Shown: positions 4,395 to 29,805, counted from the stretch's first letter. The stretch: DNA of 64,000 bases from Escherichia coli (GCF_044324875.1 NZ_CP172185.1), one strand, 5' to 3'. Notes: generated by a model from the sequence alone, not told the origin. Program-made: numbers and translations.

Positions 4395-4427
4395 CCGATG
4401 CGTAAGCTTATAGGGTCTACGCATCGG
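4395..4427. terminator. Perfect 10-bp inverted repeat (CCGATGCGTA / TACGCATCGG) between convergent yhhJ and the aldolase gene; candidate bidirectional terminator
   Basis: Inverted repeat read directly from the sequence, 11 bp after the yhhJ stop and followed by a T-rich tract (TACAATTTATTG). Confidence 0.4.
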
Positions 4428-4474
4428 TACAATTTATTGAATTGTAGTTGTTTTACGCCGCATCCGGCGAAGAT

Positions 4475-5326
4475 TTACTTAACCAACCGATGCCCCTCAT
4501 TCATCATCAGGATTTTGCTATACACATCTTCCTCGACGGCGTTTTTTGCTGATGCCATCACTCGTGCCAGATTCGCCTCGTTGTGATTATTCACATACGC
4601 TTTGCCGACGGCGGTGATAAACGCTTTGCGCAGATCGCTGGCGATATTTACTTTAGCGACGCGATAATTAACAAAGCTGCGTAATATTTCCGGGGCGATA
4701 CCGGAGCCGCCGTGAATAACCAGCGGCACCGGGCAGACTTCGGCAATGCGCTTCAGCAGGGGGATATCGATACGCGGTATATCGTCCAGGCCATGAACGT
4801 TGCCAATAGAAACTGCCAGCATGTCGCAACCGGTGCGCTCGACAAAGGTCTTCACCTTTTCCGGTTCCGTTTTGCAATCGGCTTCGCTGACGTGATCATC
4901 TTCTTTGCCGAGAATCGCCCCCAGCTCCGCTTCAACCGGTACGCCATAGGATTTACAGAAATCGACAGCTTCCTGGGTGAAAGCGATATTCTCTTCAAAA
5001 GATAATGCGGCACCGTCAATCATGACCGAGGTAAAGCCCGCGCGCACCGCCTGTTTAACATCCTCCTGAGTTTTCCCGTGATCCAGATGAAGACTGACCG
5101 GAACATCCATTTTATCGGCGTGACGTTTCACGATTTCATAAATGTAATCGTATCCCGAGAGTTGTGCATTGGTGGGCGCAATCTGAATGAAGTTGGGTAA
5201 TCCTGAACGCTCAATGGCGTTTAAAATTGAAATCGTCGTCTCCAGATTGGTGGTATTAAACGCGCCCGCTAATACCCGTTTTTCCTGAATGCGGTCGAGC
5301 AGTATCCGTCCATTAACTAATGGCAT
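4475..5326 (-). CDS. Class II ketose-bisphosphate aldolase (FbaA/GatY/KbaY family)
   Basis: 283-aa ORF with class II aldolase hallmarks: metal-binding His-containing motifs (LHLDHG, VIHGGSG) and an N-terminus typical of tagatose/fructose bisphosphate aldolases. Confidence 0.8.
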   Translation of the reverse strand: MPLVNGRILLDRIQEKRVLAGAFNTTNLETTISILNAIERSGLPNFIQIAPTNAQLSGYDYIYEIVKRHADKMDVPVSLHLDHGKTQEDVKQAVRAGFTSVMIDGAALSFEENIAFTQEAVDFCKSYGVPVEAELGAILGKEDDHVSEADCKTEPEKVKTFVERTGCDMLAVSIGNVHGLDDIPRIDIPLLKRIAEVCPVPLVIHGGSGIAPEILRSFVNYRVAKVNIASDLRKAFITAVGKAYVNNHNEANLARVMASAKNAVEEDVYSKILMMNEGHRLVK

Positions 5327-5356
5327 TTGAAAACCTCATCTTTTAATATCAGTTAA

Positions 5357-5626
5357 TTATTCAGCTTCACCGAAGCGATCACGAAATAAGGCGGTGAGAG
5401 TTTGTATTGCCTCATTTTCATCATCGCCTTCGCAGCGTATTTCCACCGTTTTGCCGCCTTTTATTCCGGCGCGCATAATATTCATCATGCTGGTGGCATT
5501 AATATCATTACCCTCATAATGCAGCGTCACTTTACAGCTAAACTTTTTGGCGGCTTTCACCAGACACGCCGCCGGACGTGCATGCAGGCCAGTACTGTTT
5601 CTGACCTCCACGGTTTTACTCAACAT
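5357..5626 (-). CDS. HPr-family phosphocarrier protein (PTS paralogue)
   Basis: 89-aa ORF with the HPr active-site context NSTGLHARPAA (phosphorylatable His) and HPr-like size. Confidence 0.8.
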   Translation of the reverse strand: MLSKTVEVRNSTGLHARPAACLVKAAKKFSCKVTLHYEGNDINATSMMNIMRAGIKGGKTVEIRCEGDDENEAIQTLTALFRDRFGEAE

Positions 5627-7124
5627 AGTGCTCCTCCCGATGGTGTAATGGCATCACGCCTTCTTGCTGTAATTTCAACTGATACCAGCTTTTCCATTTG
5701 TGCTGATAACGCTGTAATTGATGGTATCTCGCCCGATTCGGTAACAAACGTTGGGCTATGGTAACTTGCGGCGGTGGAATATCCGGTGCGGCAGTTAATA
5801 ATGCTCCGACAGAAACCGCCTCGTTAAATGCAATTGCTTCAACCGGACGCTGTAAAATATCCGCTTTTAATTGCAGCCAAAGGGGATTTTGGGTTGCCGG
5901 ACCTATCACTTTTAACGCGCTGGTGCCAGGCACATTAAAACAGGCGAAGCAGTTGGCAAATTCCATGGTTAATCCCAGTGAGACGCTGGCAATTAACATG
6001 TCGATATTTAACGTATCGCCAAGCCCATAAAATAATCCACGAGTATGGCGATTTTTATAGGGCGAACCCGAACCGCGAAGATGTGGAATAAAGAGGGGAA
6101 TGTCATCGAGCGACCAGTTCCCCGCCAGGTAATCCGCATGTCCGCGAGTAAGTGATGCGGCGATCTCCTCATCGGTTAGCCGGAACGTGTTACGCAGCCA
6201 CTCCAGAGCGAAACCGCCCACGGGCAGCGACGCAAACAGGGTGAACTGGTTTGCAAGCGAATAACAGCCGTTTGCCAGCTTGTCACGTTTGGCCTGTTCA
6301 TCCAGCGTCGGTTGTGTATCCAGTTGCAGAATGCCTTCTGTGGTCCCCGTCGAGTTAAGGATATCGCCCGGCATCATCTGCAACGCTCGCGCACCCACCA
6401 TATGGTCATGTCCGGCCAGCGTCACGCTGACCGGTTGCGAGAACCCAAGCGTTTTGCAGAGCGACTCGCTGACCCATCCGGCGTGTTCGCCTGGCTGCAC
6501 CAATGGCGCAAATGCTGAACAGGGAACGTGTAACAACGCCGCCGCTTTCGCTGACCATTCGCCTTTGCGCACGTCAAGACACAGCGTGCGGCTGGCTAAG
6601 GTGATATCCGTGCGCTGTTCGCCGGTCAGCCGCCAGAGCAGTACTTCCGGCGCATGTAGCCAACGCAGGCCGCGGCGATTACGCAGTGGGTAATGTTCCA
6701 GCAACCAACGCATTTTGAAGGCAGAGTAATTGCTGTGCAGCGGTAACCCGCAAATGTCATAAAGTGCCGCACTGTCTGCCTCGCTAAGTGTTGCCAGATA
6801 CTCTTCACCGCGACGGTCATACCATGCCAGCATTGGCGTCAGGATCTCGCCATGCTCGTCAAGGAACACGCCTGACTCGCCAAAACTGGCAATGCTTATC
6901 CGCCTGACTGGCAGCGGCGAAGCGGCGTTCAGTTGCGCTATCGCCTGGCGGACCTCCTGCCAGAGGGCGTCGATATCGAAATCGACATTGCCCTGTGGGG
7001 AGATCTGTTTTGCCGTCACGAATTTATGCGCGCCCAACGTCGTTGCGTCCAGGCAGGAAAAGCAGGTGACTTTGCAATTGGTGGTGCCAATATCGATAAC
7101 GATAGCTGCGCTGTTATCAGGCAT
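5616..7124 (-). CDS. FGGY-family carbohydrate kinase
   Basis: 502-aa ORF; N-terminal DIGTTNCK nucleotide-binding motif and internal GHDH and GTTEG motifs typical of the glycerol/xylulose/fuculose kinase superfamily. Confidence 0.8.
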   Translation of the reverse strand: MPDNSAAIVIDIGTTNCKVTCFSCLDATTLGAHKFVTAKQISPQGNVDFDIDALWQEVRQAIAQLNAASPLPVRRISIASFGESGVFLDEHGEILTPMLAWYDRRGEEYLATLSEADSAALYDICGLPLHSNYSAFKMRWLLEHYPLRNRRGLRWLHAPEVLLWRLTGEQRTDITLASRTLCLDVRKGEWSAKAAALLHVPCSAFAPLVQPGEHAGWVSESLCKTLGFSQPVSVTLAGHDHMVGARALQMMPGDILNSTGTTEGILQLDTQPTLDEQAKRDKLANGCYSLANQFTLFASLPVGGFALEWLRNTFRLTDEEIAASLTRGHADYLAGNWSLDDIPLFIPHLRGSGSPYKNRHTRGLFYGLGDTLNIDMLIASVSLGLTMEFANCFACFNVPGTSALKVIGPATQNPLWLQLKADILQRPVEAIAFNEAVSVGALLTAAPDIPPPQVTIAQRLLPNRARYHQLQRYQHKWKSWYQLKLQQEGVMPLHHREEHYVE

Positions 7125-8475
7125 AAACCGTGCTCCGCGTCATTCGGAAAATACCATACAGTACCAGGGCGATAACCGGCACCAGACCAATGGCGATGAG
7201 ATTGCCGTTGAAGATTTCCAGCAGCCAGAAGCGGAACGGGTTACCGCCATCAAGGAAACTGGAGACCTGGCCGCTGGAGCCTTCGGCAAATTTGAAATTA
7301 ACGTCTTTCGCCATTCCGGTAATAAACGGCGCGATTTTAGTCGCAATCCACAGATCGGCAATAATCACCGGAATCGCCGCCAGAACGGTGCGGAAAATGT
7401 TGCCACGGCTGGCTAAAGCAATCATCGACGCCATTACCGCCAGGTTGGCAAGGTCGCCAAGCGGCAGGACTTCATTACCCGGAAGGACAAACGCGATAAA
7501 GACCGAGATTGGCGTCAGCAGCAGGGCGGTGGAGATAATCGCTGGGTTACCTACGGCAACGGCGATATCCAGGCCGATATAGAGATCGTCACGGTCAGGG
7601 TATTTGGCATTGAGATACTTTTTAATGGCTTCAGACAGCGGTAATAAACCTTCCATCAGAATGCGAACCATGCGTGGCAGGATGAACATCACACCGCCAA
7701 TGCTGATGCCAAGCAGCAAGACTTTTTTGAAATCGTATCCGGCAATTACGCCGAGCAGAATGCCCAGAATAGTACCAACCATCATCGGTTCGCCGAATAT
7801 GCCAAACTTTTTCTGTACGGTTTCCGGATCGATATGAATACGATTGAGGCCGGGGATATGGTCGATGATTTTGTCGACCAACAGACCGACCGGAAAGAAC
7901 ACCACCGAAGAGAGCGTCGGCAAAGAGATCCCTTCCAGGCCAAAGTATTTTTGTACCAGTGGCGCAGACCAGTCGGCGAGTTTAAGTACTACCACCGCAG
8001 CAATCGCCGCTGCCAGCAAACCAAAGAACAGGCTGCCGGTGCTGTAATAAACCAGCGTACCGGCAAGGGCAAAATGCCAGTAGTTCCACATATCTACGTC
8101 AACGGTGCGGGTTTTATTTAACGCCAGCATCGCCACGTTAATCAGAATAGTCAGGGGAATAACAAACGGGGCAATTGGCGAACCCCATGTAATAGCGGAA
8201 AGCGGCGGCCAGCCTAAATCCACCACCGGTAAATTAATTCCGGTGCGTTCAACCATCGCCTGGGCCGCTGGCCCGACATTGCTGGTAAGAATATCGAAAA
8301 TGGCATAAATACCGACAAAACCAATGCCGACCGTTAATGACGAACGTAAGGCTTTAGCGGGTTTTACTTTAAAAAAGAGAGCAAGAATAAATAACACCAA
8401 CGGCAACATTACCGTGGGACCAAATCCCAATATATATTGCACAATATTATAGAGGGTATGCGCGATATCGTTCAT
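7117..8475 (-). CDS. PTS EIIC permease, galactitol (Gat) family
   Basis: Polytopic membrane protein of about 452 aa, GatC/SgcC-like. Start chosen at the ATG at 8475, preceded by AAGAGG 7 nt upstream; the ORF-track start at 8505 lacks a ribosome-binding site. Confidence 0.8.
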   Translation of the reverse strand: MNDIAHTLYNIVQYILGFGPTVMLPLVLFILALFFKVKPAKALRSSLTVGIGFVGIYAIFDILTSNVGPAAQAMVERTGINLPVVDLGWPPLSAITWGSPIAPFVIPLTILINVAMLALNKTRTVDVDMWNYWHFALAGTLVYYSTGSLFFGLLAAAIAAVVVLKLADWSAPLVQKYFGLEGISLPTLSSVVFFPVGLLVDKIIDHIPGLNRIHIDPETVQKKFGIFGEPMMVGTILGILLGVIAGYDFKKVLLLGISIGGVMFILPRMVRILMEGLLPLSEAIKKYLNAKYPDRDDLYIGLDIAVAVGNPAIISTALLLTPISVFIAFVLPGNEVLPLGDLANLAVMASMIALASRGNIFRTVLAAIPVIIADLWIATKIAPFITGMAKDVNFKFAEGSSGQVSSFLDGGNPFRFWLLEIFNGNLIAIGLVPVIALVLYGIFRMTRSTVYA

Positions 8476-8551
8476 AATAAACCTCTTTTTCAGGCGAGAG
8501 CGCACCTCGCGTTAGCGCCTGATGGAGTGGGTTGAAATTAATTATTATTAA

Positions 8552-8833
8552 TTACTTTTTAAGGATCGAAACAATTTGCGCCAGTACTTTCTCTTCGCCA
8601 ATACCGGTAATAATCGGCAAGCCGTTAACCACCGGGACGTCGAGTTCATAAGGCACTTTAGTCGTTGAGACTACCAGTGCTACGCCGTCAGTATTTCCAG
8701 GTAAAGAGGCAACGTTGGTTTGGGAATAATTGACGTTAAGACCGTGCTCTTTACAATATTCCATGACTTTTTCTGTTACCGCCGTGGATGTGGCAATACC
8801 CGTGGCGCAGACAAATAAAATGGTTTGACTCAT
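8552..8833 (-). CDS. PTS EIIB component (galactitol-type, Cys phosphorylation site)
   Basis: 93-aa ORF beginning MSQTILFVCATGIATS, the conserved N-terminal Cys motif of GatB-type EIIB. Confidence 0.8.
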   Translation of the reverse strand: MSQTILFVCATGIATSTAVTEKVMEYCKEHGLNVNYSQTNVASLPGNTDGVALVVSTTKVPYELDVPVVNGLPIITGIGEEKVLAQIVSILKK

Positions 8834-9303
8834 ATTTCACCTCGTTCTTTCATTTTGTTTAAGATTACTGTGTGTATTTCTGTTGTTTCCATCGTAAGCA
8901 GGGCGCGCATAAAGGGCGTATCCTGAATCATCTCCATAATCCAGCCCAGGGCATTTAATTGTTTATTACTTTCACTTAAGGCGAGCAAAAAAATCACCCT
9001 GACATGTACGGGGTCAGGATCGCCGCCCATATCGGCAAACTCTACCGGTTCCGGAAGGATGCCGACGGCAATTGCATTGTGCCTGACATATTTATGGTCC
9101 GTGTGCGGAATGGCGACGCACGGTGGTTCGGTAGGCAGCCCCGTTGGGTACGTCGCCTCACGTTTCAGTACGTGATCGGCAAAATCAGGGACCACCAGCT
9201 CAGCAGCAACCAACGGTTGCGCTAACTGACGGATGATCTGTTCAACGCTTAACCCTGCCGGAAGTCGTTGAATATAATTTTCCTGAAACTGTATGCCTTG
9301 CAT
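8830..9303 (-). CDS. PTS EIIA component (fructose/mannitol-type EIIA-2 fold)
   Basis: About 157 aa; start at the ATG at 9303, preceded by GAGGAA; contains the conserved His region (AIPHTDHKYV). Stop overlaps the EIIB start. Confidence 0.75.
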   Translation of the reverse strand: MQGIQFQENYIQRLPAGLSVEQIIRQLAQPLVAAELVVPDFADHVLKREATYPTGLPTEPPCVAIPHTDHKYVRHNAIAVGILPEPVEFADMGGDPDPVHVRVIFLLALSESNKQLNALGWIMEMIQDTPFMRALLTMETTEIHTVILNKMKERGEI

Positions 9304-9327
9304 TTTATTCCTCATAAAAAAGTGTAT

Positions 9328-10074
9328 TTAACTCAATTCCCGCCGTTGCAGCACGGTGCCCAGATAATATTTATTTCCTTTTAACCAGACGTTGCCAAAC
9401 TCAACGGGTAACTCTCGGGAGAAAAAGACTAATTGCTCCAGATGCAAAACGGGTGCATCTTCACAGATATCTAAAAAATGACCGCGTTCATTACCAATTA
9501 ATCGCGCGGCATAGCGACTTTCCGAGTAACGAATTTTTCTTTTCGACAAACTTTCTATTGTTGGAAATAAATTGTGTTGATTAAAATCGATTTCCACGAT
9601 GCCGGGGCATAGCTCAATATTGATACGGTTCTCTATCAGCATCGCTTTTTCATCACCAATTGAACGTAAACGCTCAAGGTAAAGAATATCCTGACCGGGC
9701 GTTATTCTTAATTTCTCTGCCACATAACGATTAGCCGGTTCAATCCGTGACGTAATAACTTCAGTGGTAAAGTGTATTTTCTGGCTTTCCAGCGATTCCG
9801 CGAATGACAATAATCCTTCACCTAACGGATATGCCACGTTCTCTTTTTTGACAAATGTTCCCTTCCCCTGGACCTGAATCAACACGCCTTGTTTTACCAG
9901 TTGGGCGACAGCTTTTTTAACGGTTCCCCGACTCACTTCCAGCATATCCATAATCTGGTATTCCGAAGGAATGCGATCGTCTTCCACCAGATCCCCGGTA
10001 TAAATATTTTCTCTTATCCACTCCACCACTTGTTGATAGAGCGGTATTTGTGACGACTTACTCAATGATTTCAT
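9328..10074 (-). CDS. GntR/HutC-family transcriptional regulator (winged-HTH plus UTRA effector domain)
   Basis: N-terminal GntR HTH signature (IPSEYQIMDMLEVSRGTVKKAVAQLVKQGVL) and a C-terminal UTRA-like domain; ATG at 10074 is preferred over the GTG at 10083. Confidence 0.8.
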   Translation of the reverse strand: MKSLSKSSQIPLYQQVVEWIRENIYTGDLVEDDRIPSEYQIMDMLEVSRGTVKKAVAQLVKQGVLIQVQGKGTFVKKENVAYPLGEGLLSFAESLESQKIHFTTEVITSRIEPANRYVAEKLRITPGQDILYLERLRSIGDEKAMLIENRINIELCPGIVEIDFNQHNLFPTIESLSKRKIRYSESRYAARLIGNERGHFLDICEDAPVLHLEQLVFFSRELPVEFGNVWLKGNKYYLGTVLQRRELS

Positions 10075-10096
10075 GGCGCGCACCTGAACATTTACA

Positions 10097-10122
10097 GTTG
10101 TCTATGGACAATCATGGACAAC
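10097..10122. promoter_or_regulatory. Candidate operator: inverted repeat GTTGTC...GACAAC containing the palindrome TTGTC-TATG-GACAA and a direct repeat of ATGGACAA
   Basis: Read directly from the sequence, 23 bp upstream of the HutC-family regulator start; HutC-type operators are commonly GT/AC-containing palindromes. Confidence 0.3.
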
Positions 10123-10272
10123 TTCAAGCGTATAGTAGGTGAACAGGCGAAAAAGAGGATCGAAGCGTCTCACATTTTAGGGGACTAAATCGTGATCAAA
10201 AAAATGTGACGTGAGTCGATATTTGGCAGAAGTCTACTGCGCCGTCAGGAAATAACGGCGCGTTGGGAGGTG

Positions 10273-16293: not shown

Positions 16294-17523
16294 TCAGGGC
16301 CAACGTTTAATGATGATGGATGTATTAATGCCGCCAAAGGCAAAGTTGTTACTCTGCAAAAACTCACAATCAACCTTGCGGGCTTCATGCATGATGTAAT
16401 CCAGCGCGCCACAGTTCGGGTCTGGTTTATTCAGGTTTAGCGTAGGCGCAAACCAACCTTCGCGCATCATTTGCAGACTCATCCAGGCTTCGAGCGCGCC
16501 ACAGGCACCAAGCGTATGACCAAAATAACTTTTCAGCGAGGAGAGCGGCACATTATCACCGTAAATGGTTGCTGTCGCCAGACTTTCTGCCATATCACCA
16601 CGATCGGTCGCCGTACCATGCGCCGAAATATAGCCGATATCACTTGCACTTAACCCGGCGATTTTTAACGATTTTTCCATACAATATTGCATGGTCTCAC
16701 GCTGAGGCTGGGTAATATGTGCCGCGTCGCAGTTAGTCGCAAAGCCGACGATTTCACCGTAAATGGTCGCGCCGCGCGCTTTGGCGTGCTCCAGTTCTTC
16801 AAGAATCAGCGTACCTGCGCCTTCACCAATCACCAGCCCGTCGCGGTTTTCATCGAACGGTGAAGGTGTGGTTTTCGGCGCATCATTGTGCTGGCTGGTG
16901 GCGAAAAGTGTATCAAATACCGCTGCTTCTGAAGGGCATAACTCTTCGGCACCACCAGCAACCATCACCGTTTGATAACCGTGGCGAATGGCTTCCCACG
17001 CATAACCGATCGCCTGGCTGCCGGAGGTACAGGCGCTGGAGGTCGGGATCACCCGCCCGCGCAGGCCGAAAAACAGACCGGTATTAACGGCGGTGGTGTG
17101 CGGCATCATCTGTACATAGGTGGTGCCGGTGATGTTATTGGTGTGCTTTTCCGTCAGCATGGTGGCAAATTCGCTCACCGGACCGGTACTGCCGGTCGAT
17201 GAACCGTACGCAATGCCCGTTTCGCCGCTGGTTAATATCGGATCGCCAATCAATCCTGCCTGCTCTAACGCCAGCTCGCTGGCACGGGTCGACATTTGCG
17301 ACACGCGGCCCATCGCACGGATACGCTTGCGGGTGTAGTGCTCCGGTAGCGTGAAATCATCAACAGGCGCGCCAAGCAGGGTGTGCAGACCATCGTAGAC
17401 CTGCCACTCCGGCATTTTGCGCACTGCATTCTCATACGCCAGCAGACGCGCGGAAACGTCCTGCCAGTTTTCACCAAAGGCAGTCACGCCGCCCATTCCT
17501 GTAATCACTACGCGACGTGTCAT
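16294..17523 (-). CDS. Beta-ketoacyl-ACP synthase (FabB/FabF-like; ApeR-like by gene order)
   Basis: 409-aa thiolase-fold ketosynthase with active-site Cys (TSSACTSGS) and C-terminal His residues. Confidence 0.8.
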   Translation of the reverse strand: MTRRVVITGMGGVTAFGENWQDVSARLLAYENAVRKMPEWQVYDGLHTLLGAPVDDFTLPEHYTRKRIRAMGRVSQMSTRASELALEQAGLIGDPILTSGETGIAYGSSTGSTGPVSEFATMLTEKHTNNITGTTYVQMMPHTTAVNTGLFFGLRGRVIPTSSACTSGSQAIGYAWEAIRHGYQTVMVAGGAEELCPSEAAVFDTLFATSQHNDAPKTTPSPFDENRDGLVIGEGAGTLILEELEHAKARGATIYGEIVGFATNCDAAHITQPQRETMQYCMEKSLKIAGLSASDIGYISAHGTATDRGDMAESLATATIYGDNVPLSSLKSYFGHTLGACGALEAWMSLQMMREGWFAPTLNLNKPDPNCGALDYIMHEARKVDCEFLQSNNFAFGGINTSIIIKRWP

Positions 17524-18251
17524 AACATCCCTCCGTTGATGGAAATAACCTGGCGGGTGACGTAACCCGCAATATCAGACATTAAATAGCTGGCAAGCCC
17601 GGCAACTTCTTCCGCCTGGCCCATGCGTTTCATGGGGATCATCGACATTGCCTCTTTCAGGGCGCTCTCTTCCATTTCGATCATCCCGGTATCAATAAGC
17701 CCCGGCGCGATGCAGTTGACGGTGATTTTGCGCTTCGCGAGTTCGATAGCCAGTGCTTTTGTTGCGCCGATAATTCCGGCTTTGGCAGCGCTGTAGTTCA
17801 CCTGTCCGCGATTGCCCATCACGCCGGAAACCGAGGACAGCGTGATGATGCGTCCACCCTGGCGTGTGCCGATCATCGGCATAATGCACGGCTGAATAAC
17901 GTTGTAGAAACTGTCGAGATTGGTGTGGATCACCGCATCCCAGTCGTCATCGCTTAAAGCCGGAAAAGCGGCATCGCGGGCGATCCCGGCGTTACTAACC
18001 ACGCCGTACCAGGCACCGTTTTGCGCGATTTCGTGCTCCAGCACTTCCCGACACTGTTCGCGGTTTGCGACGTCGAAACTGAGCAAACGCCCGTTACCCC
18101 CGTTGGCGACAATGGCATTTAGCGTTTCCTGAGCGCCTGTGGCGTCACGGTGATAGTGAACGCCAATATTAAAGCCGTCTGCCGCCAGTTGGCAGGCGAT
18201 GGCGCGACCAATGCCTTTGCTGGCACCAGTAACCAGAACTGAACGACTCAT
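17520..18251 (-). CDS. 3-oxoacyl-ACP reductase, SDR family (FabG-like; ApeQ-like)
   Basis: N-terminal TGASKGIGRAIA Rossmann motif and YSAAK catalytic motif. Confidence 0.85.
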   Translation of the reverse strand: MSRSVLVTGASKGIGRAIACQLAADGFNIGVHYHRDATGAQETLNAIVANGGNGRLLSFDVANREQCREVLEHEIAQNGAWYGVVSNAGIARDAAFPALSDDDWDAVIHTNLDSFYNVIQPCIMPMIGTRQGGRIITLSSVSGVMGNRGQVNYSAAKAGIIGATKALAIELAKRKITVNCIAPGLIDTGMIEMEESALKEAMSMIPMKRMGQAEEVAGLASYLMSDIAGYVTRQVISINGGML

Positions 18252-18715
18252 CAGGACGCTCCTTGTTGAAACAGGGTGGTAAGTTCTTCCGCGGTCGGCT
18301 GGAAGGTGTTAATGCGGCCCGTTGCCGTGCCGTTGTTGATGCTGCACTCAAAACTGCCGAAGCGATCGTCTTGCATCAGGAGTTTGACGGTAATGGTCAG
18401 CGTCTGGCCTGCGGGCAGAATGCCAGCGGCGCAAAGCAATTCACGTGCGCCCAGTACCATCCCTAACTCAATACTGTTTTTGCCCTGCTGGTGGCGATGC
18501 CAGCCAGACCAGACGCCGACGGTTTGCGCCATCAATTCAAGGGCAAACCAGCCAGGGAGATTGCCGTCCGGGTCGAGAAACGGTGCCAGTACGCCACTGG
18601 GCGAGACCGTTACACGGCACACCGCGCTGTCATCGCTGACGCTCACCACTTCTTCCAGCAGTAACATGGGCGCGTCGTGGGGCAGATAAGCGCCGGGGGA
18701 TAAATAGTGGCTCAC
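18251..18715 (-). CDS. Hotdog-fold beta-hydroxyacyl-ACP dehydratase (FabA/FabZ-like; ApeP-like)
   Basis: 154-aa hotdog-fold protein between the KR and KS genes; 1-bp overlap with the reductase gene. Confidence 0.7.
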   Translation of the reverse strand: MSHYLSPGAYLPHDAPMLLLEEVVSVSDDSAVCRVTVSPSGVLAPFLDPDGNLPGWFALELMAQTVGVWSGWHRHQQGKNSIELGMVLGARELLCAAGILPAGQTLTITVKLLMQDDRFGSFECSINNGTATGRINTFQPTAEELTTLFQQGAS

Positions 18716-19890
18716 GAAACCCTCCCGAGCAGAATGCTGGCGTTATTGCCGCCAAAGGCGAAGGAATTGGACAGGATCACCGGACGTGCCAGCGGCTGTG
18801 GTTGTTCGATAATGCCGCACGGTGGCAGCGTGGGATCGCGCGGCGACAGGCTGAAGTCCTGAGCGGGCAGCGGTAAATCACGCTCTAAGATCAACATACT
18901 GATTGCCGCTTCGGTAATGCCCGCTGCGCCCAGCGTGTGTCCGGTCAAATGTTTGGTGGAGCTGCACGGTACGCGTTCGCCAAACAGGGCGTTTACCAGC
19001 ATCGATTCAATCTGGTCGTTGAGTTGTGTGGCGGTGCCGTGCAGGTTGATATAGCCCACCTCATCCGGCGTAAGCTGCGCATCAGCCAGCGCCTGGTTAA
19101 TGGCGCGAATTGCGCCTTCGCCCTGTGGATGCGGGGCCGAAATATGATAAGCGTCGCTCGATTCACCGACGCCCAGCAAGGCGATGGGCTGCGGTTCGCG
19201 GGTCAACAGCATCAGCCCCGCACCTTCGCCAATGGTGATGCCCGCGCGGTCACGACCAAACGGCTGACATAAGGTTGGCGAGAGCGATTCGAGGCTGTGA
19301 AAACCGTTAATCGGCATTCGGCTCAGGGTGTCTGCACCACCCACAATGGCGGCATCGACCAGCCCCGCCTCGATAAGCCTGCGCCCGCTGATCATCGCTC
19401 TGGCACTGGAGGAGCAGGCGGTTGAAAGGGTATAAGCTGGGCCGTCGAGCGCCAGCCAGTGGCTGAGAAAACGCGACGGATCGCCGAGCTCTTGTTGTGC
19501 ATAGTGCCACGTGGTGCTCGGCTGCCCGTGGGTGCGCAGGTTAACGTGCGTGTCGCCTTCATGCAGGCCGGAGGTGCTGGTGCCAAGCACAATCGCGATG
19601 CGCTCGCGGCCATATTTCGCAATAGCGTCATCAACCTGCGGCTGGATCTGCGCCAGCGCCGCCAGCAGGATCTGATTGTTGCGCGAGCGGTGCGCAGCGA
19701 ATTTTTCCGGGATAACCGGAAGCTCGCCATCCACGCCAGCCAGGACCGCCTGCGGATGCCCCTGCAACCAGCCTGCGCGCGGGCGCATGCCGGGAGCGAC
19801 ACCGCGAGTCAGGTTGGCTGCGATATCGTCAAGGTTATTTCCCAGGGCGTTGATCATGCCGACGGCGGAAATGTAAATCATATCAGTCAC
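18712..19890 (-). CDS. Beta-ketoacyl-ACP synthase (ApeO-like elongating ketosynthase)
   Basis: 392-aa ketosynthase with active-site Cys (STACSSS) and conserved His motifs. Confidence 0.8.
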   Translation of the reverse strand: MTDMIYISAVGMINALGNNLDDIAANLTRGVAPGMRPRAGWLQGHPQAVLAGVDGELPVIPEKFAAHRSRNNQILLAALAQIQPQVDDAIAKYGRERIAIVLGTSTSGLHEGDTHVNLRTHGQPSTTWHYAQQELGDPSRFLSHWLALDGPAYTLSTACSSSARAMISGRRLIEAGLVDAAIVGGADTLSRMPINGFHSLESLSPTLCQPFGRDRAGITIGEGAGLMLLTREPQPIALLGVGESSDAYHISAPHPQGEGAIRAINQALADAQLTPDEVGYINLHGTATQLNDQIESMLVNALFGERVPCSSTKHLTGHTLGAAGITEAAISMLILERDLPLPAQDFSLSPRDPTLPPCGIIEQPQPLARPVILSNSFAFGGNNASILLGRVS

Positions 19891-20467
19891 CTAAATATTG
19901 AATGGTGATGTGGTATTTAAAGACATGCTGTTCAATGCTGATTGGCACGCGTTTTCCCTGGCGATTCAGATAGGTGATTTCCGTGACCAGTTTGCCGCTG
20001 GCGTTACGCAGTTCGCGTTTGTCACCGTTGTCGCGAAGCGTCCATCCAGCGGGGAGTTGCGGTTGCCAGGCGCTAATCGGCCAGTGGCTAAGCATCACGT
20101 CAGCCAGCACCTGACTTGCGGGCGGCAACTGTGGGACGACGATGGATTGCTCGGCGCGTAGCCCTTGCGCATCGTAGGTCACCAGAAACAGACGAATGCC
20201 GACCGACGACAGCCCGGCAAGGGTGATTTTCTGGTCGTCGGCGTTAAGCATCACTAGCAGAGACTGGGTTTTGCCGTTGAAGCTGCCGCTCAATAGTTGC
20301 TGGGAATTAACGGCGGGCGAAATCCCTGGTGCCGGCAGCGTGATGCGCGTGCCAGGTTGCAGCCACGCCTGTGGGCGACCTTCCTGTTCCGGTTGCGAGT
20401 GGCTACAGCCGGTGAGGATAAGCGTAGCGGTCAGGGCGAACGCTCGCCAGAATGTGGGTTTGATCAT
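19883..20467 (-). CDS. Lipoprotein of the cluster export module (ApeN-like)
   Basis: Signal peptide with lipobox LTGC near the N-terminus; overlaps both flanking genes. Confidence 0.65.
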   Translation of the reverse strand: MIKPTFWRAFALTATLILTGCSHSQPEQEGRPQAWLQPGTRITLPAPGISPAVNSQQLLSGSFNGKTQSLLVMLNADDQKITLAGLSSVGIRLFLVTYDAQGLRAEQSIVVPQLPPASQVLADVMLSHWPISAWQPQLPAGWTLRDNGDKRELRNASGKLVTEITYLNRQGKRVPISIEQHVFKYHITIQYLGD

Positions 20468-22782
20468 TTTTTTGTTCTCTTTTTATCGGGCATAGCCAGC
20501 GGCGAAAGCAGGAAGGCGGTGAAAATACCGCTCACCAACACAATGCCAAAACTGCTGATGGCCTGGGTGGCGCTGAATACCAGCATTCCCAGCGCCAGCA
20601 AGGTGGTGAGCATTGCCAGCGTGATCGCCAGTAGGGAAGTTAACGGTGTACCGCGCGGATTACTGAAAAACAGCGTGTAATTGATGCCGATGCCAAGCAC
20701 CAGCACCAGCGCCAGTAGCGAAAAGAGATTCACCGCCTGCCCGCTCATCGCCAGCACTGCCAGACCGCAGCCCAGCGAAAGTACCGAAGGCACCAGGCTG
20801 ATAAGCCCTTTGCGCCAGCCGAGGCGGGCCACTGCGCCGCAGGCAATCACCGCCAGCGCCACCAGCAACAAACCGGTTAAGACGTAGCGGTAAAGTGCGA
20901 ACAACTCATCAAAGGTGCTTTTGCGATCAACCCAGGCAATGCCGCCAGGGTAATCGCTGGCGATTTCCTGCAACAACGCGCTACTTTTAACCCCTTCAAC
21001 CGGCACCAGTACGCCGCTTTCGCCGTTTTTCAGCGTCAGCCACAGCAGACGCCAGCCTTCACTGGCGGGGCTTGCCAGCCATTCATCGACCTTCACTGGC
21101 ATGGCGTTGAGATCCGGATTCACTGCCGCCAGCCCGGCATTTTGCAGTGCTTTTGTTACTGTCGGGGCAGCCGTTTTCAGCAGATGTAAATCTTCCTCCT
21201 GCCGCGCCAGGGAGTTCAGCGGAATGGTGCGGTAGTTGCTGATAAGCCCCTCTTTTTTCGCATTCTCCAGCGAGGCGGTAAATTTCTCCAGCCGCCGCAA
21301 TGTTTGCTGTGGAGAGTCGCCGTAAACTACAAACCATTTTTGATCGACGCTTTGTCCGGTCAGGGCGGTAATGGCTTTCTCTTGGGCCAGAATATGCTGC
21401 GGTAGCGCCTGTAACTGCGAGATATCGTCGTCGACGCGCAGCATTGACATCCCCGCCAGCGAAAACAGCGCCAGCGCGACGGGCAGACCCAGCGACAGTT
21501 TTTTATTACGCCGCCACGCAGCCAGCCAGCGCAGCATCAGCGCCATCGCCGGAACCGGACGCACCGGCAGGCCACGGCACAGCCACGGATGCCAGAACAG
21601 GACGGTCAGACAGGAGGCGCTCAACCCGACGGCGGCAAAAATCGCCATCTGGCGAATGCCGGGGAAGGGGGCGAGCATCATAATCAGATACGCCGCCACG
21701 GTGGTGAGCAGCGCCAGCAGCAGGGCATTGCGCACTTTCGCCAGGCTTTGCCACGGCGAAACGTCATTGCCGTGCACCATCCGCTCGGTGAGGTAATAGA
21801 GCGTGTAGTCAGCGGAAATGCCGATAACGCTCATGCTCATCACCAGCGTCATCAGGTGTAATTCGCCGAAAATCAACAAGGTGGCGACCGTTCCCGCCAG
21901 CGCGCCGATGCCGATGGAAATCACGCAAAGCAGCAATGGGCGTAAAGAGCGGAACACCGCCACAATCAGTAATATCACCCCCAGCAGCGTTGCCACGCCC
22001 AGGTTGGAGATATCCTGCTTCGCCTGTTGGCTGGCGTAATCGCTGTAAAACACCGTGCCGCGCGAGAGCAACTGCGCCTGCGGGTAACGCGTTTTCAGAT
22101 CCTTTTCCAGCGTATTCAGGGTCGTGATGAGCTGGTGGGTTTGCTGCATATCAAACGACGATCCCGCCAGTTCGCCGTGCAGCAGATACCAGTAGTTGCC
22201 CTGGGGATCCTGCGTCACCAGCCAGCCGTCCATCAGCCGCAAACGCTGGCCGTTTTTCGCCATCGCCAGCTGCGAGCCACGCATTAACATCAGCGGATCG
22301 TTTTGCAGCTCCTTACCGCTTACCCCGGAGAACGCAGAATAAAGCTGGGAGAGGATCCACTGCGCCTGCGCTTCGCCGCCGTTTTGCAGGCGCGCGCGGG
22401 TGTCGGGGTCAACCAGGCCGTTGCGGTGCTGCCAGAAAAACGCTCCCCACGCCTGCTGGCTGGCGGCATCCATTGGCCCTTTAACGTCGCCGAGCGCAGC
22501 GGATTTTTGCAGCAGCGTCAGCCACTCCTGAGCCACCCTGGGATTAGCCTCTTTACCGGGGCTGACCAGCCACACCAGTTGGCGGTCCAGACGCTGCATA
22601 AAGCCGTCATTCAGCGCTGGAGGAATATCGCCCATCGCCTGTTTGGGTAACATAGCCAGCACGCTACTGTTCAGTCGTGATTGCGGCAACAGGATCAGCA
22701 ACGCCGCCGCCATGACCAGGCAGACGATCCCCCATAACAGCGCCGGGCGTTTACTGGGCGGCAAAACGTTGGCGTTCGTCAT
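20464..22782 (-). CDS. MMPL/RND-superfamily exporter (ApeM-like)
   Basis: 772-aa protein with two blocks of transmembrane helices separated by large soluble domains, typical of MMPL-type lipid exporters. Confidence 0.8.
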   Translation of the reverse strand: MTNANVLPPSKRPALLWGIVCLVMAAALLILLPQSRLNSSVLAMLPKQAMGDIPPALNDGFMQRLDRQLVWLVSPGKEANPRVAQEWLTLLQKSAALGDVKGPMDAASQQAWGAFFWQHRNGLVDPDTRARLQNGGEAQAQWILSQLYSAFSGVSGKELQNDPLMLMRGSQLAMAKNGQRLRLMDGWLVTQDPQGNYWYLLHGELAGSSFDMQQTHQLITTLNTLEKDLKTRYPQAQLLSRGTVFYSDYASQQAKQDISNLGVATLLGVILLIVAVFRSLRPLLLCVISIGIGALAGTVATLLIFGELHLMTLVMSMSVIGISADYTLYYLTERMVHGNDVSPWQSLAKVRNALLLALLTTVAAYLIMMLAPFPGIRQMAIFAAVGLSASCLTVLFWHPWLCRGLPVRPVPAMALMLRWLAAWRRNKKLSLGLPVALALFSLAGMSMLRVDDDISQLQALPQHILAQEKAITALTGQSVDQKWFVVYGDSPQQTLRRLEKFTASLENAKKEGLISNYRTIPLNSLARQEEDLHLLKTAAPTVTKALQNAGLAAVNPDLNAMPVKVDEWLASPASEGWRLLWLTLKNGESGVLVPVEGVKSSALLQEIASDYPGGIAWVDRKSTFDELFALYRYVLTGLLLVALAVIACGAVARLGWRKGLISLVPSVLSLGCGLAVLAMSGQAVNLFSLLALVLVLGIGINYTLFFSNPRGTPLTSLLAITLAMLTTLLALGMLVFSATQAISSFGIVLVSGIFTAFLLSPLAMPDKKRTKK

Positions 22783-23356
22783 CGGTCAGTTGCGCTGGCG
22801 TCAGTTGATGTTGGGTAAGAGCGATATCGGTGCGATCGCCCTGTTTATCATTAAGCTGAATGCTCTCCAGATAGGTTTGCCCGGCGAGATCGATGGTGTT
22901 GAAAATTTTATCCAGCGGCGTGGTGGTCGGCGTCAGGCGCAGTGTCCAGCGGCCTTCGCCTTTGTCAGCAAATTCGACGCGGAAATTTTGTTCCAGCACT
23001 TTGCGATCGGCCTGGAACAGCGCGCGCAGCAGGTGGTTAAACTGGAACATCTGCGGGTTATTTTCTGCCGTGATGATTTGCGGCGGCTGACCGTTGATCA
23101 CCTGCACCATGCGTTTATCGTCCAGCAATAGTTGCATGGGAAATGGTGAGGTTTGATCCCACAACAGCCCCTGGTCGCGGGCGATCAACATCTGGCCCTG
23201 AGATCGTAGCGGCTGCGGCAGATCTTTAATCGTCCGGGTTTGATCGAAATGAGCGCGGATCACCGGCTGTTCGGTAAAGCGTTGCTGAAGATCGTCCAGG
23301 TTCAGGGCGCTCACAAACGGGCTAATCAGCAGCGCCAGCAGTGGTAAAAATTTCAT
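22751..23356 (-). CDS. LolA-like outer-membrane lipoprotein carrier family protein (ApeL-like)
   Basis: 201-aa secreted protein with a cleavable signal peptide; position next to the MMPL exporter. Confidence 0.65.
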   Translation of the reverse strand: MKFLPLLALLISPFVSALNLDDLQQRFTEQPVIRAHFDQTRTIKDLPQPLRSQGQMLIARDQGLLWDQTSPFPMQLLLDDKRMVQVINGQPPQIITAENNPQMFQFNHLLRALFQADRKVLEQNFRVEFADKGEGRWTLRLTPTTTPLDKIFNTIDLAGQTYLESIQLNDKQGDRTDIALTQHQLTPAQLTDDERQRFAAQ

Positions 23357-23775
23357 GGTTTGACTCCCATGCGTTCAAACAAAATATCGGGGCTGACAAA
23401 GCACAGTTCGCGGCTTTGCTCGTCGACCGCGACCTGAATGGTGTATCCGGTGGTGGCGCGTTTGCCCGTTTCGGCATCGAAAATCTGATAGCCAATCCGC
23501 AGACGGTTTTCGAACTCTTCGATATGTGCACGCACGCGGATGCGTTGCTCAAAGGTGAGGGCGTGGCGATATTTCACCCGCGCATCGACCACTGGCCACA
23601 AATAACCGGACTCTTTCATCTGCCGATAGCCGTAATTGAACTGGTTGAGCAGCGCCTCGCGGGCCACTTCAAAGTAGCGAAAATAGTTACCGTGCCAGGC
23701 CACGCCCATCATATCGACGTCGTGAAAGGGAATGGTCAGCTCGACTTCAGCGGTAAATCGGGGATCGTTAAGCAC
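23353..23775 (-). CDS. Hotdog-fold acyl-CoA/acyl-ACP thioesterase (4HBT-like; ApeK-like)
   Basis: 140-aa protein resembling YbgC/4-hydroxybenzoyl-CoA thioesterase family members. Confidence 0.7.
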   Translation of the reverse strand: MLNDPRFTAEVELTIPFHDVDMMGVAWHGNYFRYFEVAREALLNQFNYGYRQMKESGYLWPVVDARVKYRHALTFEQRIRVRAHIEEFENRLRIGYQIFDAETGKRATTGYTIQVAVDEQSRELCFVSPDILFERMGVKP

Positions 23776-23778
23776 CCT

Positions 23779-25455: not shown

Positions 25456-25829
25456 AGGCGGATCTTCCCGCTACTGGCGGTGTGGCGGGCGTCACCGTCG
25501 TGACGCTGATAGCTAAAGCTCAGAATCTGGCGTTCTTCCTGCCAGTTAAGCGTGAGCGTGACGCGGTTGTCCGGCAGCAACGGGGACTGGAATTTGATGT
25601 TCTGAATAGAGTGAAAACGCCAGCCAGGCGCGAGCAGAGTGAGCGCGTAGCTCATCGCCCAGTCGATTTGTGCAACTCCTGGGAGTAACGGCTGCACGGC
25701 AAAATGGCCGCGAAACCAGAACAGATCTGCCCTGAGATGCAAAACAATCTCAAGGTGATTCGCTTGTGCCTGATGGCGCTCGATTTCATGGGGCTTCATG
25801 AAATAACTCCTGTAATTGCGCATAGACAC
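25446..25829 (-). CDS. Hotdog-fold dehydratase (ApeI-like)
   Basis: 127-aa hotdog-like protein overlapping both neighbours. Confidence 0.6.
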   Translation of the reverse strand: MSMRNYRSYFMKPHEIERHQAQANHLEIVLHLRADLFWFRGHFAVQPLLPGVAQIDWAMSYALTLLAPGWRFHSIQNIKFQSPLLPDNRVTLTLNWQEERQILSFSYQRHDGDARHTASSGKIRLCR

Positions 25830-27725: not shown

Positions 27726-27729
27726 CAGA

Positions 27730-27981: not shown

Positions 27982-27992
27982 GATGGCTTTCC

Positions 27993-29789: not shown

Positions 29790-29805
29790 AATTATTAAGT
29801 GACGA

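What the first reader, a model, noticed from the sequence alone, without database searches (positions are those of the whole stretch)
4475..10122. Uncharacterised seven-gene PTS catabolic island at the position of K-12 rhsB
Between yhhJ and nikR, where K-12 carries the rhsB element, this sequence has a co-directional operon: HutC/GntR regulator, EIIA, EIIB, Gat-family EIIC, FGGY kinase, HPr paralogue and class II ketose-bisphosphate aldolase. GC content is visibly lower than the flanking nik and rbbA genes, suggesting horizontal acquisition. I cannot match this gene combination to a characterised E. coli pathway (it is not gat, sgc, ula or frl), so the substrate is unknown.
Basis: partly seen in the sequence, partly recalled or inferred. 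Interest (0 to 1): 0.65.

Follow-up and report, generated by a model that had tools for sequence, protein, structure and literature searches.

The report
Orphan PTS sugar operon, substrate unknown
This is a real, intact seven-gene operon for importing and splitting an unidentified sugar; it sits where E. coli K-12 has the rhsB element, occurs in about 30% of complete E. coli genomes and in Salmonella, and is already catalogued as "unknown sugar", so it is a modest open question rather than a surprise.

Summary
A 5,803-bp insert (window 4470-10272) lies between yhhJ and nikR, where K-12 and other strains carry Rhs elements. It encodes, all on the minus strand, a GntR/HutC regulator, PTS EIIA, EIIB and Gat-family EIIC, an FGGY kinase, an HPr paralogue and a class II aldolase.

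All seven genes are intact and under purifying selection. The island is in 1635 of 5426 complete E. coli genomes, including O157:H7 (Z4874-Z4880) and Nissle 1917. Its Salmonella counterpart is STM3779-3785, which the literature calls a PTS of unknown specificity.

The core module (regulator, aldolase, EIIABC, FGGY kinase) recurs in Enterococcus, Listeria, Clostridium and Pectinatus, with EIIC 71-77% identical. That indicates transfer between phyla. Within E. coli the island has diverged in step with its flanking genes, so the acquisition is old.

The most likely mechanism is import of a ketose as a monophosphate, a second phosphorylation by the FGGY kinase, then aldol cleavage to triose phosphates.

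Galactitol is unlikely because there is no dehydrogenase. D-tagatose is disfavoured because Nissle carries the island yet cannot grow on tagatose once its separate ABC-type tag cluster is deleted.

The substrate remains unknown. Interest is moderate to low.

The parts
4470..10272 (.). Whole insert (5,803 bp) between yhhJ and nikR. It occupies the site that holds Rhs elements in K-12 and other strains.
   Evidence: blastn against K-12 shows homology stopping at the nikR stop codon and resuming at window 4469. GC is 0.491 against 0.564 for the flanks. 1635 of 5426 complete E. coli genomes hold at least 80% of it, always on the chromosome.
9328..10074 (-). GntR/HutC-family transcriptional regulator (248 aa from the PGAP start); presumed repressor of the operon.
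   Evidence: The best NCBIfam hits are HutC-type regulators (LSA1692 subfamily, PhnF, TreR, HutC), all below cut-off. The Salmonella orthologue (82% identical) carries Pfam GntR plus UTRA. dN/dS is 0.14.
10096..10123 (-). Candidate operator: an 11-nt inverted repeat (AGTTGTCTATG / CATGGACAACT) overlapping two direct ATGGACAA repeats 10 nt apart, 20-50 bp upstream of the regulator start.
   Evidence: Found by the repeat finder and visible in the sequence. The same block is conserved upstream of the Salmonella regulator. Four TTGTACA-type repeats lie upstream of the Enterococcus regulator. Function is inferred, not shown.
8830..9303 (-). PTS EIIA (PTS_EIIA_2 type, 157 aa).
   Evidence: Hits GatA and FruA-IIA models below cut-off. 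The invariant His67 in the 'AIPH' motif aligns with the same motif in K-12 GatA.
8552..8833 (-). PTS EIIB (93 aa).
   Evidence: Hits the GatB model at 60 bits, below the cut-off of 95. The invariant Cys9 aligns with the GatB cysteine. dN/dS is 0.05.
7117..8475 (-). PTS EIIC of the galactitol (Gat) family (452 aa); the permease and specificity determinant.
   Evidence: TIGR00827 scores 475.6 bits, below the cut-off of 542.2. It is about 41% identical to K-12 GatC. Identity is 89% to Salmonella and 71-77% to the Firmicute homologues. dN/dS is 0.01.
5616..7124 (-). FGGY-family carbohydrate kinase (502 aa). Its start overlaps the EIIC stop by 8 nt.
   Evidence: No equivalog is reached; the best scores are XylB 147, GlpK 129 and FucK 121 bits. 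PF00370 and PF02782 are recorded on a 98%-identical cluster representative. The motifs DIGTTN, GHDHMVG, LNSTGTTEG and VIGPAxxN are invariant or near-invariant across nine homologues. dN/dS is 0.06.
5357..5626 (-). HPr paralogue (89 aa). Its start overlaps the kinase stop by 11 nt.
   Evidence: TIGR01003 scores 105.9 bits, above the cut-off of 47.9. His15, Arg17 and Ser46 are visible in the translation. The gene is present in the Enterobacterales versions and absent from the Firmicute versions.
4475..5326 (-). Class II (Zn-dependent, FBA/GatY fold) ketose-phosphate aldolase (283 aa).
   Evidence: NF005943 scores 556.7 bits, above the cut-off of 364. The GatY, KbaY and FBA equivalogs are all below cut-off. 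The HLDH, GNVHG and IHGGSG His motifs are kept. Identity to GatY, KbaY and YdjI is 32-36%.
4395..4427 (.). 10-bp perfect hairpin (CCGATGCGTA-N13-TACGCATCGG) between the convergent yhhJ and aldolase genes; a probable shared terminator. It lies in DNA shared with K-12, just outside the insert.
   Evidence: Read directly from the sequence. K-12 homology starts at window 4469. The simple terminator scan did not list it because it has no T-run.

Best explanation
This is a functional, anciently acquired catabolic operon for a still unidentified ketose, or a sugar that needs no oxidation step.

Proposed sequence of events:
1. A HutC-type GntR repressor binds TTGTCCAT-type repeats upstream of its own gene. 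It is released by a pathway intermediate (inferred).
2. The sugar enters through a Gat-family EIIC. It is phosphorylated on entry through the operon's own HPr, then EIIA (His67), then EIIB (Cys9). The phosphocarrier residues are shown to be present; the reaction itself is inferred.
3. The FGGY kinase adds a second phosphate at the other terminal carbon, giving a ketose bisphosphate (inferred).
4. The class II Zn aldolase, which needs no GatZ-like partner, cleaves the bisphosphate to DHAP plus an aldose phosphate. For a D-ketohexose that product is glyceraldehyde-3-P, which feeds glycolysis (inferred).

A sister version of the module in Pantoea, Gibbsiella and one metagenomic contig adds a Zn alcohol dehydrogenase. 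It most likely takes the corresponding polyol to the same bisphosphate.
For: **Intact machinery.** All seven families were identified. Catalytic and phosphocarrier residues are present: HPr His15, EIIA His67, EIIB Cys9, the aldolase Zn-ligand His motifs and the kinase ASKHA motifs with the GHDH catalytic Asp.

**Purifying selection.** dN/dS is 0.01-0.16 for all seven genes between two E. coli lineages.

**A minimal, self-sufficient module.** Regulator + aldolase + EIIA + EIIB + EIIC + FGGY kinase, with no other enzyme, recurs in Salmonella, Enterococcus, Listeria, Clostridium and Pectinatus. The kinase gene abuts or overlaps EIIC in these loci. PTS, kinase and aldolase therefore appear to be the whole pathway.

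**Two variants converging on one aldolase.** EIIC sequences group by variant: 67-89% within the dehydrogenase-less variant across phyla, 71-85% within the dehydrogenase-bearing variant, and about 57% between them. The aldolase groups by taxon instead, at 81-92% across both variants in Enterobacterales. That pattern fits two related substrates (ketose and polyol) converging on one aldolase substrate. It is the same logic as tagatose versus galactitol, as described in PMC9720028.

**Aldolase motif.** The motif is N-I-A-S-D-L-R. The Arg matches the N-T-D-T-D-L-R of FBP aldolases. GatY/KbaY have Lys there, and the monophosphate enzyme YdjI has Cys. From my memory of the Giardia FBP aldolase work, this Arg binds the distal phosphate and the preceding Asp/Ala position governs C4 stereochemistry.

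**Expression.**
- Z4875-Z4877 are up 2-4 log2 in bovine digestive contents relative to M9-glucose (PMC6199705).
- Z4874 is 60-fold RpoS-dependent (PMC2907692).
- In Salmonella, STM3780-85 were scored as expressed in the permissive caecal community (PMC11000858).
Against: - No biochemical or genetic test of any step exists in the literature I could search.
- No FGGY kinase acting on a sugar phosphate is known to me; the characterised second-site kinases are PfkB or PfkA type.
- The kinase is much less conserved than EIIC and the aldolase: 63% against 89-90% for E. coli versus Salmonella, and 36-37% against 67-77% for E. coli versus Firmicutes. That could mean a looser or different role.
- The roles I assign to the aldolase residues rest on memory. 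I could not retrieve the paper.
- The sister variant also carries a phosphatase gene (SurE or His_Phos_1), which the simple scheme does not explain.
Confidence: 0.55

Rival explanations
1. Monophosphate route, YdjH/YdjI-like. The PTS and the FGGY kinase are alternative ways of making the same ketose-1-phosphate, from external and internal sugar respectively. The aldolase then cleaves that monophosphate to DHAP plus an unphosphorylated aldehyde.
For: FGGY kinases characterised so far act on unphosphorylated sugars (general knowledge). The kinase has the H-D motif (GHDH) that I recall from the ketose-1-kinases FucK and RhaB, and TIGR02628 fuculokinase is its third-best hit. YdjI, a member of the same aldolase fold at 34% identity, cleaves a ketose-1-phosphate (annotation; alignment).
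Against: A redundant kinase is unlikely to stay tightly coupled to EIIC across two phyla. The aldolase keeps the FBA-type Arg where YdjI has Cys. No enzyme for the resulting aldehyde is encoded in the module.
Confidence: 0.15
2. The kinase acts after the aldolase. The PTS gives a ketose monophosphate, the aldolase gives DHAP plus a free triose or tetrose, and the FGGY kinase, which resembles glycerol kinase, phosphorylates that product.
For: The best solved-structure matches of the kinase are glycerol kinases, at E about 1e-24.
Against: The NCBIfam scores for XylB, GlpK and FucK are similar to each other and all far below cut-off. Residues I recall as lining the small glycerol pocket in GlpK (Arg83, Tyr135, Phe270) appear replaced by Gly, Asn and Thr; I judged this by eye, not from a formal alignment to GlpK. 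The Arg retained in the aldolase argues for a bisphosphate substrate.
Confidence: 0.08
3. It is a second PTS-dependent D-tagatose pathway, analogous to tagKTH-gatYZ of Klebsiella and Salmonella.
For: The logic is the same: PTS, second kinase, class II aldolase (PMC9720028). The aldolase has Ala at the position where TBP aldolases have Ala and FBP aldolases have Asp.
Against: E. coli Nissle 1917 carries the complete island, with proteins 97-100% identical to those in the window. Even so, the Nissle mutant deleted for the ABC-type tag cluster does not grow on D-tagatose or consume it, aerobically or anaerobically (PMC9720028).
Confidence: 0.07
4. It is a galactitol or other hexitol PTS, as the automatic annotation says ('PTS galactitol transporter subunit IIC').
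For: PGAP uses that name. The best models for EIIA, EIIB and EIIC are the Gat ones.
Against: All three Gat models score below their cut-offs, and EIIC is only about 41% identical to GatC. No polyol-phosphate dehydrogenase and no GatZ is present here or in the five other dehydrogenase-less loci. The dehydrogenase-bearing sister variant has a distinct EIIC, about 57% identical.
Confidence: 0.05
5. It is a cryptic or decaying remnant with no current function.
For: No phenotype has been assigned. The Salmonella orthologue is reported to be H-NS-repressed (PMC3604774).
Against: The ORFs are intact. dN/dS is 0.01-0.16 at dS of about 0.06-0.2. The island is retained in 1635 genomes and is transcriptionally induced in gut contents.
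Confidence: 0.05

Closest known systems
Salmonella enterica STM3779-STM3785 island
   Same: It has the same seven gene families (GntR/UTRA, EIIA_2, IIB, EIIC-GAT, FGGY, PF01116 aldolase, HPr). Identity to the window proteins is EIIC 89%, aldolase 90%, regulator 82% and EIIB 84%. It is AT-rich and described as a PTS of unknown specificity (PMC3604774).
   Different: It lies in a different chromosomal context, and the gene order ends FGGY-aldolase-HPr rather than FGGY-HPr-aldolase. The kinase, EIIA and HPr are only 63%, 61% and 44% identical. It is also uncharacterised, so it does not explain the function.
PTS D-tagatose pathway tagKTH + gatYZ of Klebsiella and Salmonella (as summarised in PMC9720028)
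   Same: The PTS imports a ketohexose as a monophosphate, a dedicated kinase makes the 1,6-bisphosphate, and a class II aldolase splits it. That system also has a dedicated HPr-like carrier, TagH.
   Different: From my knowledge, the kinase there (TagK) is PfkB-type, not FGGY, and the EII is fructose-family, not Gat-family. The aldolase there needs GatZ; no GatZ homologue is present here. D-tagatose itself is disfavoured here by the Nissle deletion phenotype.
E. coli galactitol operon gatYZABCD
   Same: It has Gat-family EIIA, EIIB and EIIC and a class II aldolase of the same fold.
   Different: gat has the GatD dehydrogenase and the GatZ chaperone, uses housekeeping PfkA as its kinase, and has a DeoR-type repressor. 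Identities to the window proteins are low: EIIC about 41%, EIIB 37%, EIIA 21-24%, aldolase 32-37%.
E. coli K-12 ydj cluster (YdjH kinase + YdjI class II aldolase)
   Same: A sugar kinase is paired with a PF01116-fold aldolase acting on an unusual ketose phosphate. YdjI is 34% identical to the aldolase here.
   Different: There is no PTS. The kinase is PfkB-type. The substrate is a monophosphate with a carboxylate tail, and YdjI has Cys where this aldolase keeps the FBA-type Arg.
ExPEC frz operon (Rouquet et al. 2009; recalled from memory, not re-read here)
   Same: It is a strain-variable E. coli operon combining a PTS, a sugar kinase and class II ketose-bisphosphate aldolases. Its substrate is unknown, and it has been linked to fitness in the host.
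   Different: It uses a fructose-family PTS, a ROK kinase, an Mga-type activator, two aldolases and a cupin protein, and it lies at another locus.

Membership tests
PTS galactitol (Gat) family enzyme II | The EIIC matches the EIIC-GAT profile. | tested here: inconclusive
   TIGR00827 covers the full length at 475.6 bits, E=1e-142, but falls below the curated cut-off of 542.2. Pfam PF03611 is recorded for the 89%-identical Salmonella orthologue. The fold and family are met; the galactitol-specific subfamily is not.
PTS galactitol (Gat) family enzyme II | The phosphoryl-relay residues are present: EIIA His and EIIB Cys. | tested here: met
   His67 (AIPH motif) and Cys9 are invariant in six-sequence alignments that include K-12 GatA and GatB.
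HPr family phosphocarrier | The profile is matched above cut-off, and His15 is present. | tested here: met
   TIGR01003 scores 105.9 bits against a cut-off of 47.9. The sequence reads ...STGLH15AR... with Ser46 also present. It is not the PtsH or NPr equivalog; both score below cut-off.
FGGY carbohydrate kinase family | Both FGGY domains, the ASKHA phosphate motifs and the catalytic Asp are present. | tested here: met
   PF00370 and PF02782 are recorded on the 98%-identical cluster representative. DIGTTN, GHD240H and STGTTEG are invariant in nine homologues.
Characterised FGGY subfamilies (XylB, GlpK, FucK, RhaB, GntK, LsrK, AraB) | The score reaches the curated equivalog cut-off. | tested here: not met
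   Scores against cut-offs: XylB 146.8 vs 380; GlpK 129 vs 590; FucK 120.6 vs 471; GntK 86.9 vs 649; RhaB 60.8 vs 528; LsrK 46.3 vs 528; AraB 25 vs 583.
Class II (Zn) ketose-bisphosphate aldolase, PF01116 fold | The profile is matched above cut-off, and the Zn-ligand His motifs are present. | tested here: met
   NF005943 scores 556.7 vs 364, and TIGR00167 scores 220.9 vs 215.6. H80/H83 in HLDH, H178 in GNVHG and H205 in IHGGSG are invariant.
Tagatose-1,6-bisphosphate aldolase GatY/KbaY | The equivalog score is reached, and a GatZ/KbaZ partner is present. | tested here: not met
   NF009374 scores 239.8 vs 383, TIGR01858 scores 219.2 vs 443.6, and NF009375 scores 180 vs 542. Identity is 32-36%. 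No GatZ-like gene is in the island.
gat (galactitol) catabolic operon | A galactitol-1-phosphate dehydrogenase (GatD) is present in the operon. | tested here: not met
   No dehydrogenase ORF is present in the island or in the Salmonella, Enterococcus, Listeria, Clostridium and Pectinatus versions.
PTS D-tagatose pathway | The locus confers growth on D-tagatose. | tested here: not met
   This rests on indirect evidence from the literature. Nissle 1917 has the intact island, but its mutant deleted for the ABC tag cluster is Tag- (PMC9720028).
GntR family, HutC subfamily regulator | An N-terminal GntR wHTH and a C-terminal UTRA effector domain are present. | tested here: met
   It aligns over its full length to HutC-subfamily models (LSA1692, PhnF, TreR, HutC) at E 1e-29 to 1e-34, all below the equivalog cut-offs. 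Pfam GntR plus UTRA is recorded on the 82%-identical orthologue.

The most novel reading that the evidence does not exclude
The FGGY kinase is a ketose-phosphate kinase, an activity not described for this family. The module would then define a new PTS route, spread between phyla, for a rare ketose that standard panels do not test well. Candidates are a heptulose such as sedoheptulose or mannoheptulose (with the dehydrogenase-bearing sister module taking the heptitol), or D-psicose. D-psicose is one of the few carbon sources used by the island-bearing Nissle strain but not by K-12 that PMC7924626 does not assign to a locus.
Probability: 0.3. Interest if true: 0.6.

Novelty: new member of a known kind. 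Interest (0 to 1): 0.35.

Why it matters
The operon is carried by about 30% of complete E. coli genomes, including O157:H7, O103:H2 and the probiotic Nissle 1917. Its counterpart was gained in the ancestor of Salmonella enterica subspecies I (PMC3604774). It is switched on in bovine gut contents.

Naming its substrate would add a nutrient niche to models of gut colonisation and of competition between pathogens and commensals. It could also give the FGGY kinase family a new type of substrate. The practical value is a well-defined target for deorphanisation, not a new principle.

Tried and rejected
- **vpe carbohydrate permease locus (Martinez-Jehanne 2012).** I considered it as an identity for the island. 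It lies on a pathogenicity island with deoK (PMC5382810), not at nikR, so I rejected it. The original paper is not held.
- **D-tagatose as substrate.** Rejected on the Nissle deletion phenotype.
- **EcN ABC-type tag cluster.** It is a different locus (accC-yhdT) with different genes.
- **Rfam scan of the island.** No hits at E up to 0.1.
- **Promoter and terminator consensus scan.** Counts were no higher than in shuffled sequence, and no site was found in the expected promoter region.
- **Plasmid carriage.** No true plasmid copy exists. The only high-identity hits are two 4.9-Mb chromosomes filed as plasmids in PLSDB, and all other hits are below 50% identity.
- **Literature searches.** Searches on nikR/yhhJ/PTS, OI-139, and FGGY with PTS, aldolase or tagatose found no characterisation. 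Searches by locus tag found only transcriptome and genome-comparison mentions.
- **Giardia FBP aldolase paper.** I tried to retrieve it to check the residue roles and failed. Those roles remain from memory.
- **Not done.** I did not predict structures, because the tools return no coordinates and a fold match would not identify the substrate.

Full report
**1. The observation**

Window 4475-10083 holds seven consecutive minus-strand ORFs. The window is 100% identical to E. coli BEC1-S17-ESBL-09 (AP022298). There PGAP annotates the same seven genes as GntR-family regulator, PTS EIIA, EIIB, 'galactitol' EIIC, FGGY-family kinase, HPr-family protein and class II aldolase.

hmmscan against NCBIfam confirms each family:
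- Aldolase: NF005943, 556.7 bits, above its cut-off.
- HPr: TIGR01003, 105.9 bits, above its cut-off.
- EIIC: TIGR00827, 475.6 bits, below the cut-off of 542.2.
- EIIA and EIIB: Gat models, below cut-off.
- Kinase: best hits XylB, GlpK and FucK at 121-147 bits, far below cut-offs of 380-590.
- Regulator: HutC-type models, below cut-off.

The flanking genes are yhhJ and nikR. In K-12 MG1655 the same two genes are separated by rhsB-yhhH-yrhC-yhhI. blastn puts the limits of the insert at window 4470 and 10272; the nikR-side breakpoint coincides with the nikR stop codon. The island's GC is 0.491 against 0.564 for the flanks. The kinase gene (0.54) is not lower than yhhJ.

**2. Distribution and history**

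1635 of 5426 complete E. coli genomes hold at least 80% of the island. There is always one chromosomal copy and never a plasmid copy. Carriers include O157:H7 and O103:H2 and Nissle 1917. In O157:H7 a hicAB toxin-antitoxin pair sits between yhhJ and the aldolase gene.

The strains I sampled that lack the island carry Rhs elements at the site. The site therefore appears to hold either the PTS operon or an Rhs element.

All seven genes are under purifying selection between the window strain and O157:H7, with dN/dS of 0.01-0.16. Their synonymous divergence (0.06-0.2 against O157 and against Nissle) matches that of the flanking core genes yhhJ, nikR, nikC, nikD and nikE, at 0.09-0.2. The island was therefore already present in the common ancestor of these lineages. 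It is foreign, but it is not recent.

**3. Relatives elsewhere**

The kinase has orthologues at 60-80% identity in Citrobacter, Sodalis, Pantoea, Izhakiella, Trabulsiella, Cedecea and Salmonella. Identity then drops to about 35-40% in Enterococcus, Listeria, Clostridium, Pectinatus and Mitsuokella.

Gene neighbourhoods show the same module everywhere: regulator, PF01116 aldolase, EIIA_2, IIB, EIIC-GAT and FGGY kinase. In the Firmicute loci the kinase gene abuts or overlaps EIIC and no further enzyme is present. Pectinatus has an Mga/PRD regulator instead of GntR. The Firmicute versions lack the HPr gene.

EIIC is 71-77% identical between E. coli and the Firmicutes, and the aldolase 56-67%. The kinase is only 36-37% and EIIA about 40%. 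Such high EIIC identity across phyla indicates horizontal transfer of the module.

The Salmonella version is the STM3779-3785 island. It sits in another chromosomal context, and its last genes run FGGY-aldolase-HPr rather than FGGY-HPr-aldolase.

**4. A sister variant**

In Pantoea, Gibbsiella and one metagenomic contig, the kinase gene is followed directly by a Zn-dependent alcohol dehydrogenase gene. A phosphatase gene (SurE or His_Phos_1) lies nearby.

EIICs group by variant: 67-89% within the dehydrogenase-less set, 71-85% within the dehydrogenase set, and about 57% between the sets. The aldolase groups by taxon, at 81-92% among Enterobacterales of both variants.

The simplest reading is that the two variants import two related substrates, a ketose and its polyol, and feed the same aldolase substrate. 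The PTS tagatose and galactitol routes relate to each other in the same way (as summarised in PMC9720028).

**5. Mechanism**

The parts needed for a phosphorylating PTS are all present: HPr His15, EIIA His67 and EIIB Cys9.

The kinase keeps the ASKHA motifs and the catalytic Asp in a family-specific GHDHMVG motif. It has a family-specific VIGP/AAxxN in place of the usual GGG adenosine motif.

The aldolase keeps the Zn-ligand His motifs. Its C-terminal motif is N-I-A-S-D-L-R. FBP aldolases have N-T-D-T-D-L-R there, GatY/KbaY have N-V-A-T-E-L-K, and the monophosphate enzyme YdjI has N-I-H-T-E-L-C. From my memory of the Giardia enzyme, the Arg binds the distal phosphate and the Asp/Ala position controls C4 stereochemistry. 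I could not re-read that paper.

With no dehydrogenase, isomerase or epimerase in the module, the most economical pathway has three steps:
1. The ketose is phosphorylated on import.
2. The FGGY kinase phosphorylates it a second time.
3. The aldolase cleaves the bisphosphate to DHAP plus an aldose phosphate.

The presence of the relay and catalytic residues is shown. The order of reactions and the bisphosphate intermediate are inferred. I give this 0.55.

A candidate operator lies 20-50 bp upstream of the regulator start, at window 10096-10123. It is an 11-nt inverted repeat overlapping two ATGGACAA direct repeats 10 nt apart. It is conserved in Salmonella and echoed by four TTGTACA repeats in Enterococcus. 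Consensus promoter and terminator scans were uninformative, and Rfam found nothing.

**6. What the substrate is not**

Galactitol is unlikely. There is no GatD or GatZ, EIIC is only about 41% identical to GatC, and all Gat models score below cut-off.

D-tagatose is disfavoured. Nissle 1917 has the complete island, with proteins 97-100% identical to those in the window. Yet deleting its separate ABC-type tag cluster abolishes growth on D-tagatose and consumption of it, aerobically and anaerobically (PMC9720028).

L-sorbose, GalNAc and deoxyribose are assigned to other Nissle loci (PMC7924626). Of the carbon sources that Nissle uses and K-12 does not, that paper leaves D-psicose, D-arabinose and lactitol without a locus. 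This is a lead only.

**7. What is known**

- Salmonella STM3779-3785 is described as an AT-rich, H-NS-repressed island gained by the ancestor of subspecies I, encoding 'a complete PTS with unknown specificity' (PMC3604774).
- The same genes are listed under 'Unknown sugars' in 2024 (PMC11000858).
- In EDL933 the genes are Z4874-Z4880 (Sakai ECs4349-4355; nikR is ECs4348).
- Z4875-Z4877 rise 2-4 log2 in rumen, small-intestine and rectum contents relative to M9-glucose (PMC6199705).
- Z4874 is 60-fold RpoS-dependent in stationary phase (PMC2907692).

I found no biochemical or genetic assignment.

**8. Verdict**

The finding is real and correctly read. It is an orphan member of a familiar kind of system, a PTS plus second-site kinase plus class II aldolase operon under a sugar-phosphate-sensing repressor. 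Its unusual features are the FGGY kinase, the aldolase that needs no GatZ-like partner, and the dedicated HPr.

The locus itself is already catalogued, so the novelty lies only in the unassigned substrate and the possible new FGGY activity. Interest is 0.35.

Noticed in passing
window 16294-31310: A gene cluster of about 15 kb lies between acpT and yhhT. It encodes ketoacyl-ACP synthases, an ApeP-family dehydratase, acyl carrier proteins, an MMPL transporter, a LolA-like protein, a glycosyltransferase and a methyltransferase, and looks like the aryl-polyene (APE) biosynthetic cluster. It is absent from K-12 and from Nissle 1917, where yhhT and acpT are adjacent.
   Followed up: partly
L002 3306-3937 (E. 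coli O157:H7 380-94): In O157:H7 a hicA/hicB toxin-antitoxin pair is inserted between yhhJ and the aldolase gene, replacing the short intergenic stretch seen in the window.
   Followed up: partly
L003 7193-13515; L015 and L016 9189-18085: The sampled strains without the PTS island carry different Rhs elements with immunity-gene arrays and IS fragments at the same yhhJ-nikR site. I did not look for strains with both or with neither.
   Followed up: partly
window 5357-7124 and 8830-9303; L004-L014: Conservation within the module is very uneven. The kinase, EIIA and HPr diverge three to four times faster than EIIC, the aldolase and EIIB in every comparison. For example, E. coli versus Salmonella gives 63%, 61% and 44% for the first group against 89%, 90% and 84% for the second. 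The E. coli HPr is only 43-44% identical to the Salmonella, Pantoea and Gibbsiella HPrs, which are 64-78% identical to each other. This suggests replacement or separate recruitment.
   Followed up: partly
L008 8501-12475; L013 8500-12476; L014 8511-10643: The sister variant of the module carries a Zn alcohol dehydrogenase gene that starts at or within a few bases of the kinase stop codon. It also has a phosphatase gene nearby (SurE in Pantoea and Gibbsiella, His_Phos_1 in a metagenomic contig). The simple pathway scheme does not explain the phosphatase.
   Followed up: no
window 10159-10220: A 20-nt imperfect inverted repeat (75% complementary, 22 nt between the arms) lies in the island-specific nikR-regulator spacer, upstream of the candidate operator. 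Its function is unknown.
   Followed up: no
window 60776-62445: An Hcp1-family T6SS effector fusion gene (tssD, 1179 bp) is followed by yrhA. The same pair is present in Nissle 1917.
   Followed up: no
PLSDB records NZ_CP141089.1 and NZ_CP134663.1: Two E. coli 'plasmid' records of 4.9 Mb in the plasmid collection are evidently chromosomes. They are the only high-identity plasmid hits for the EIIC.
   Followed up: no
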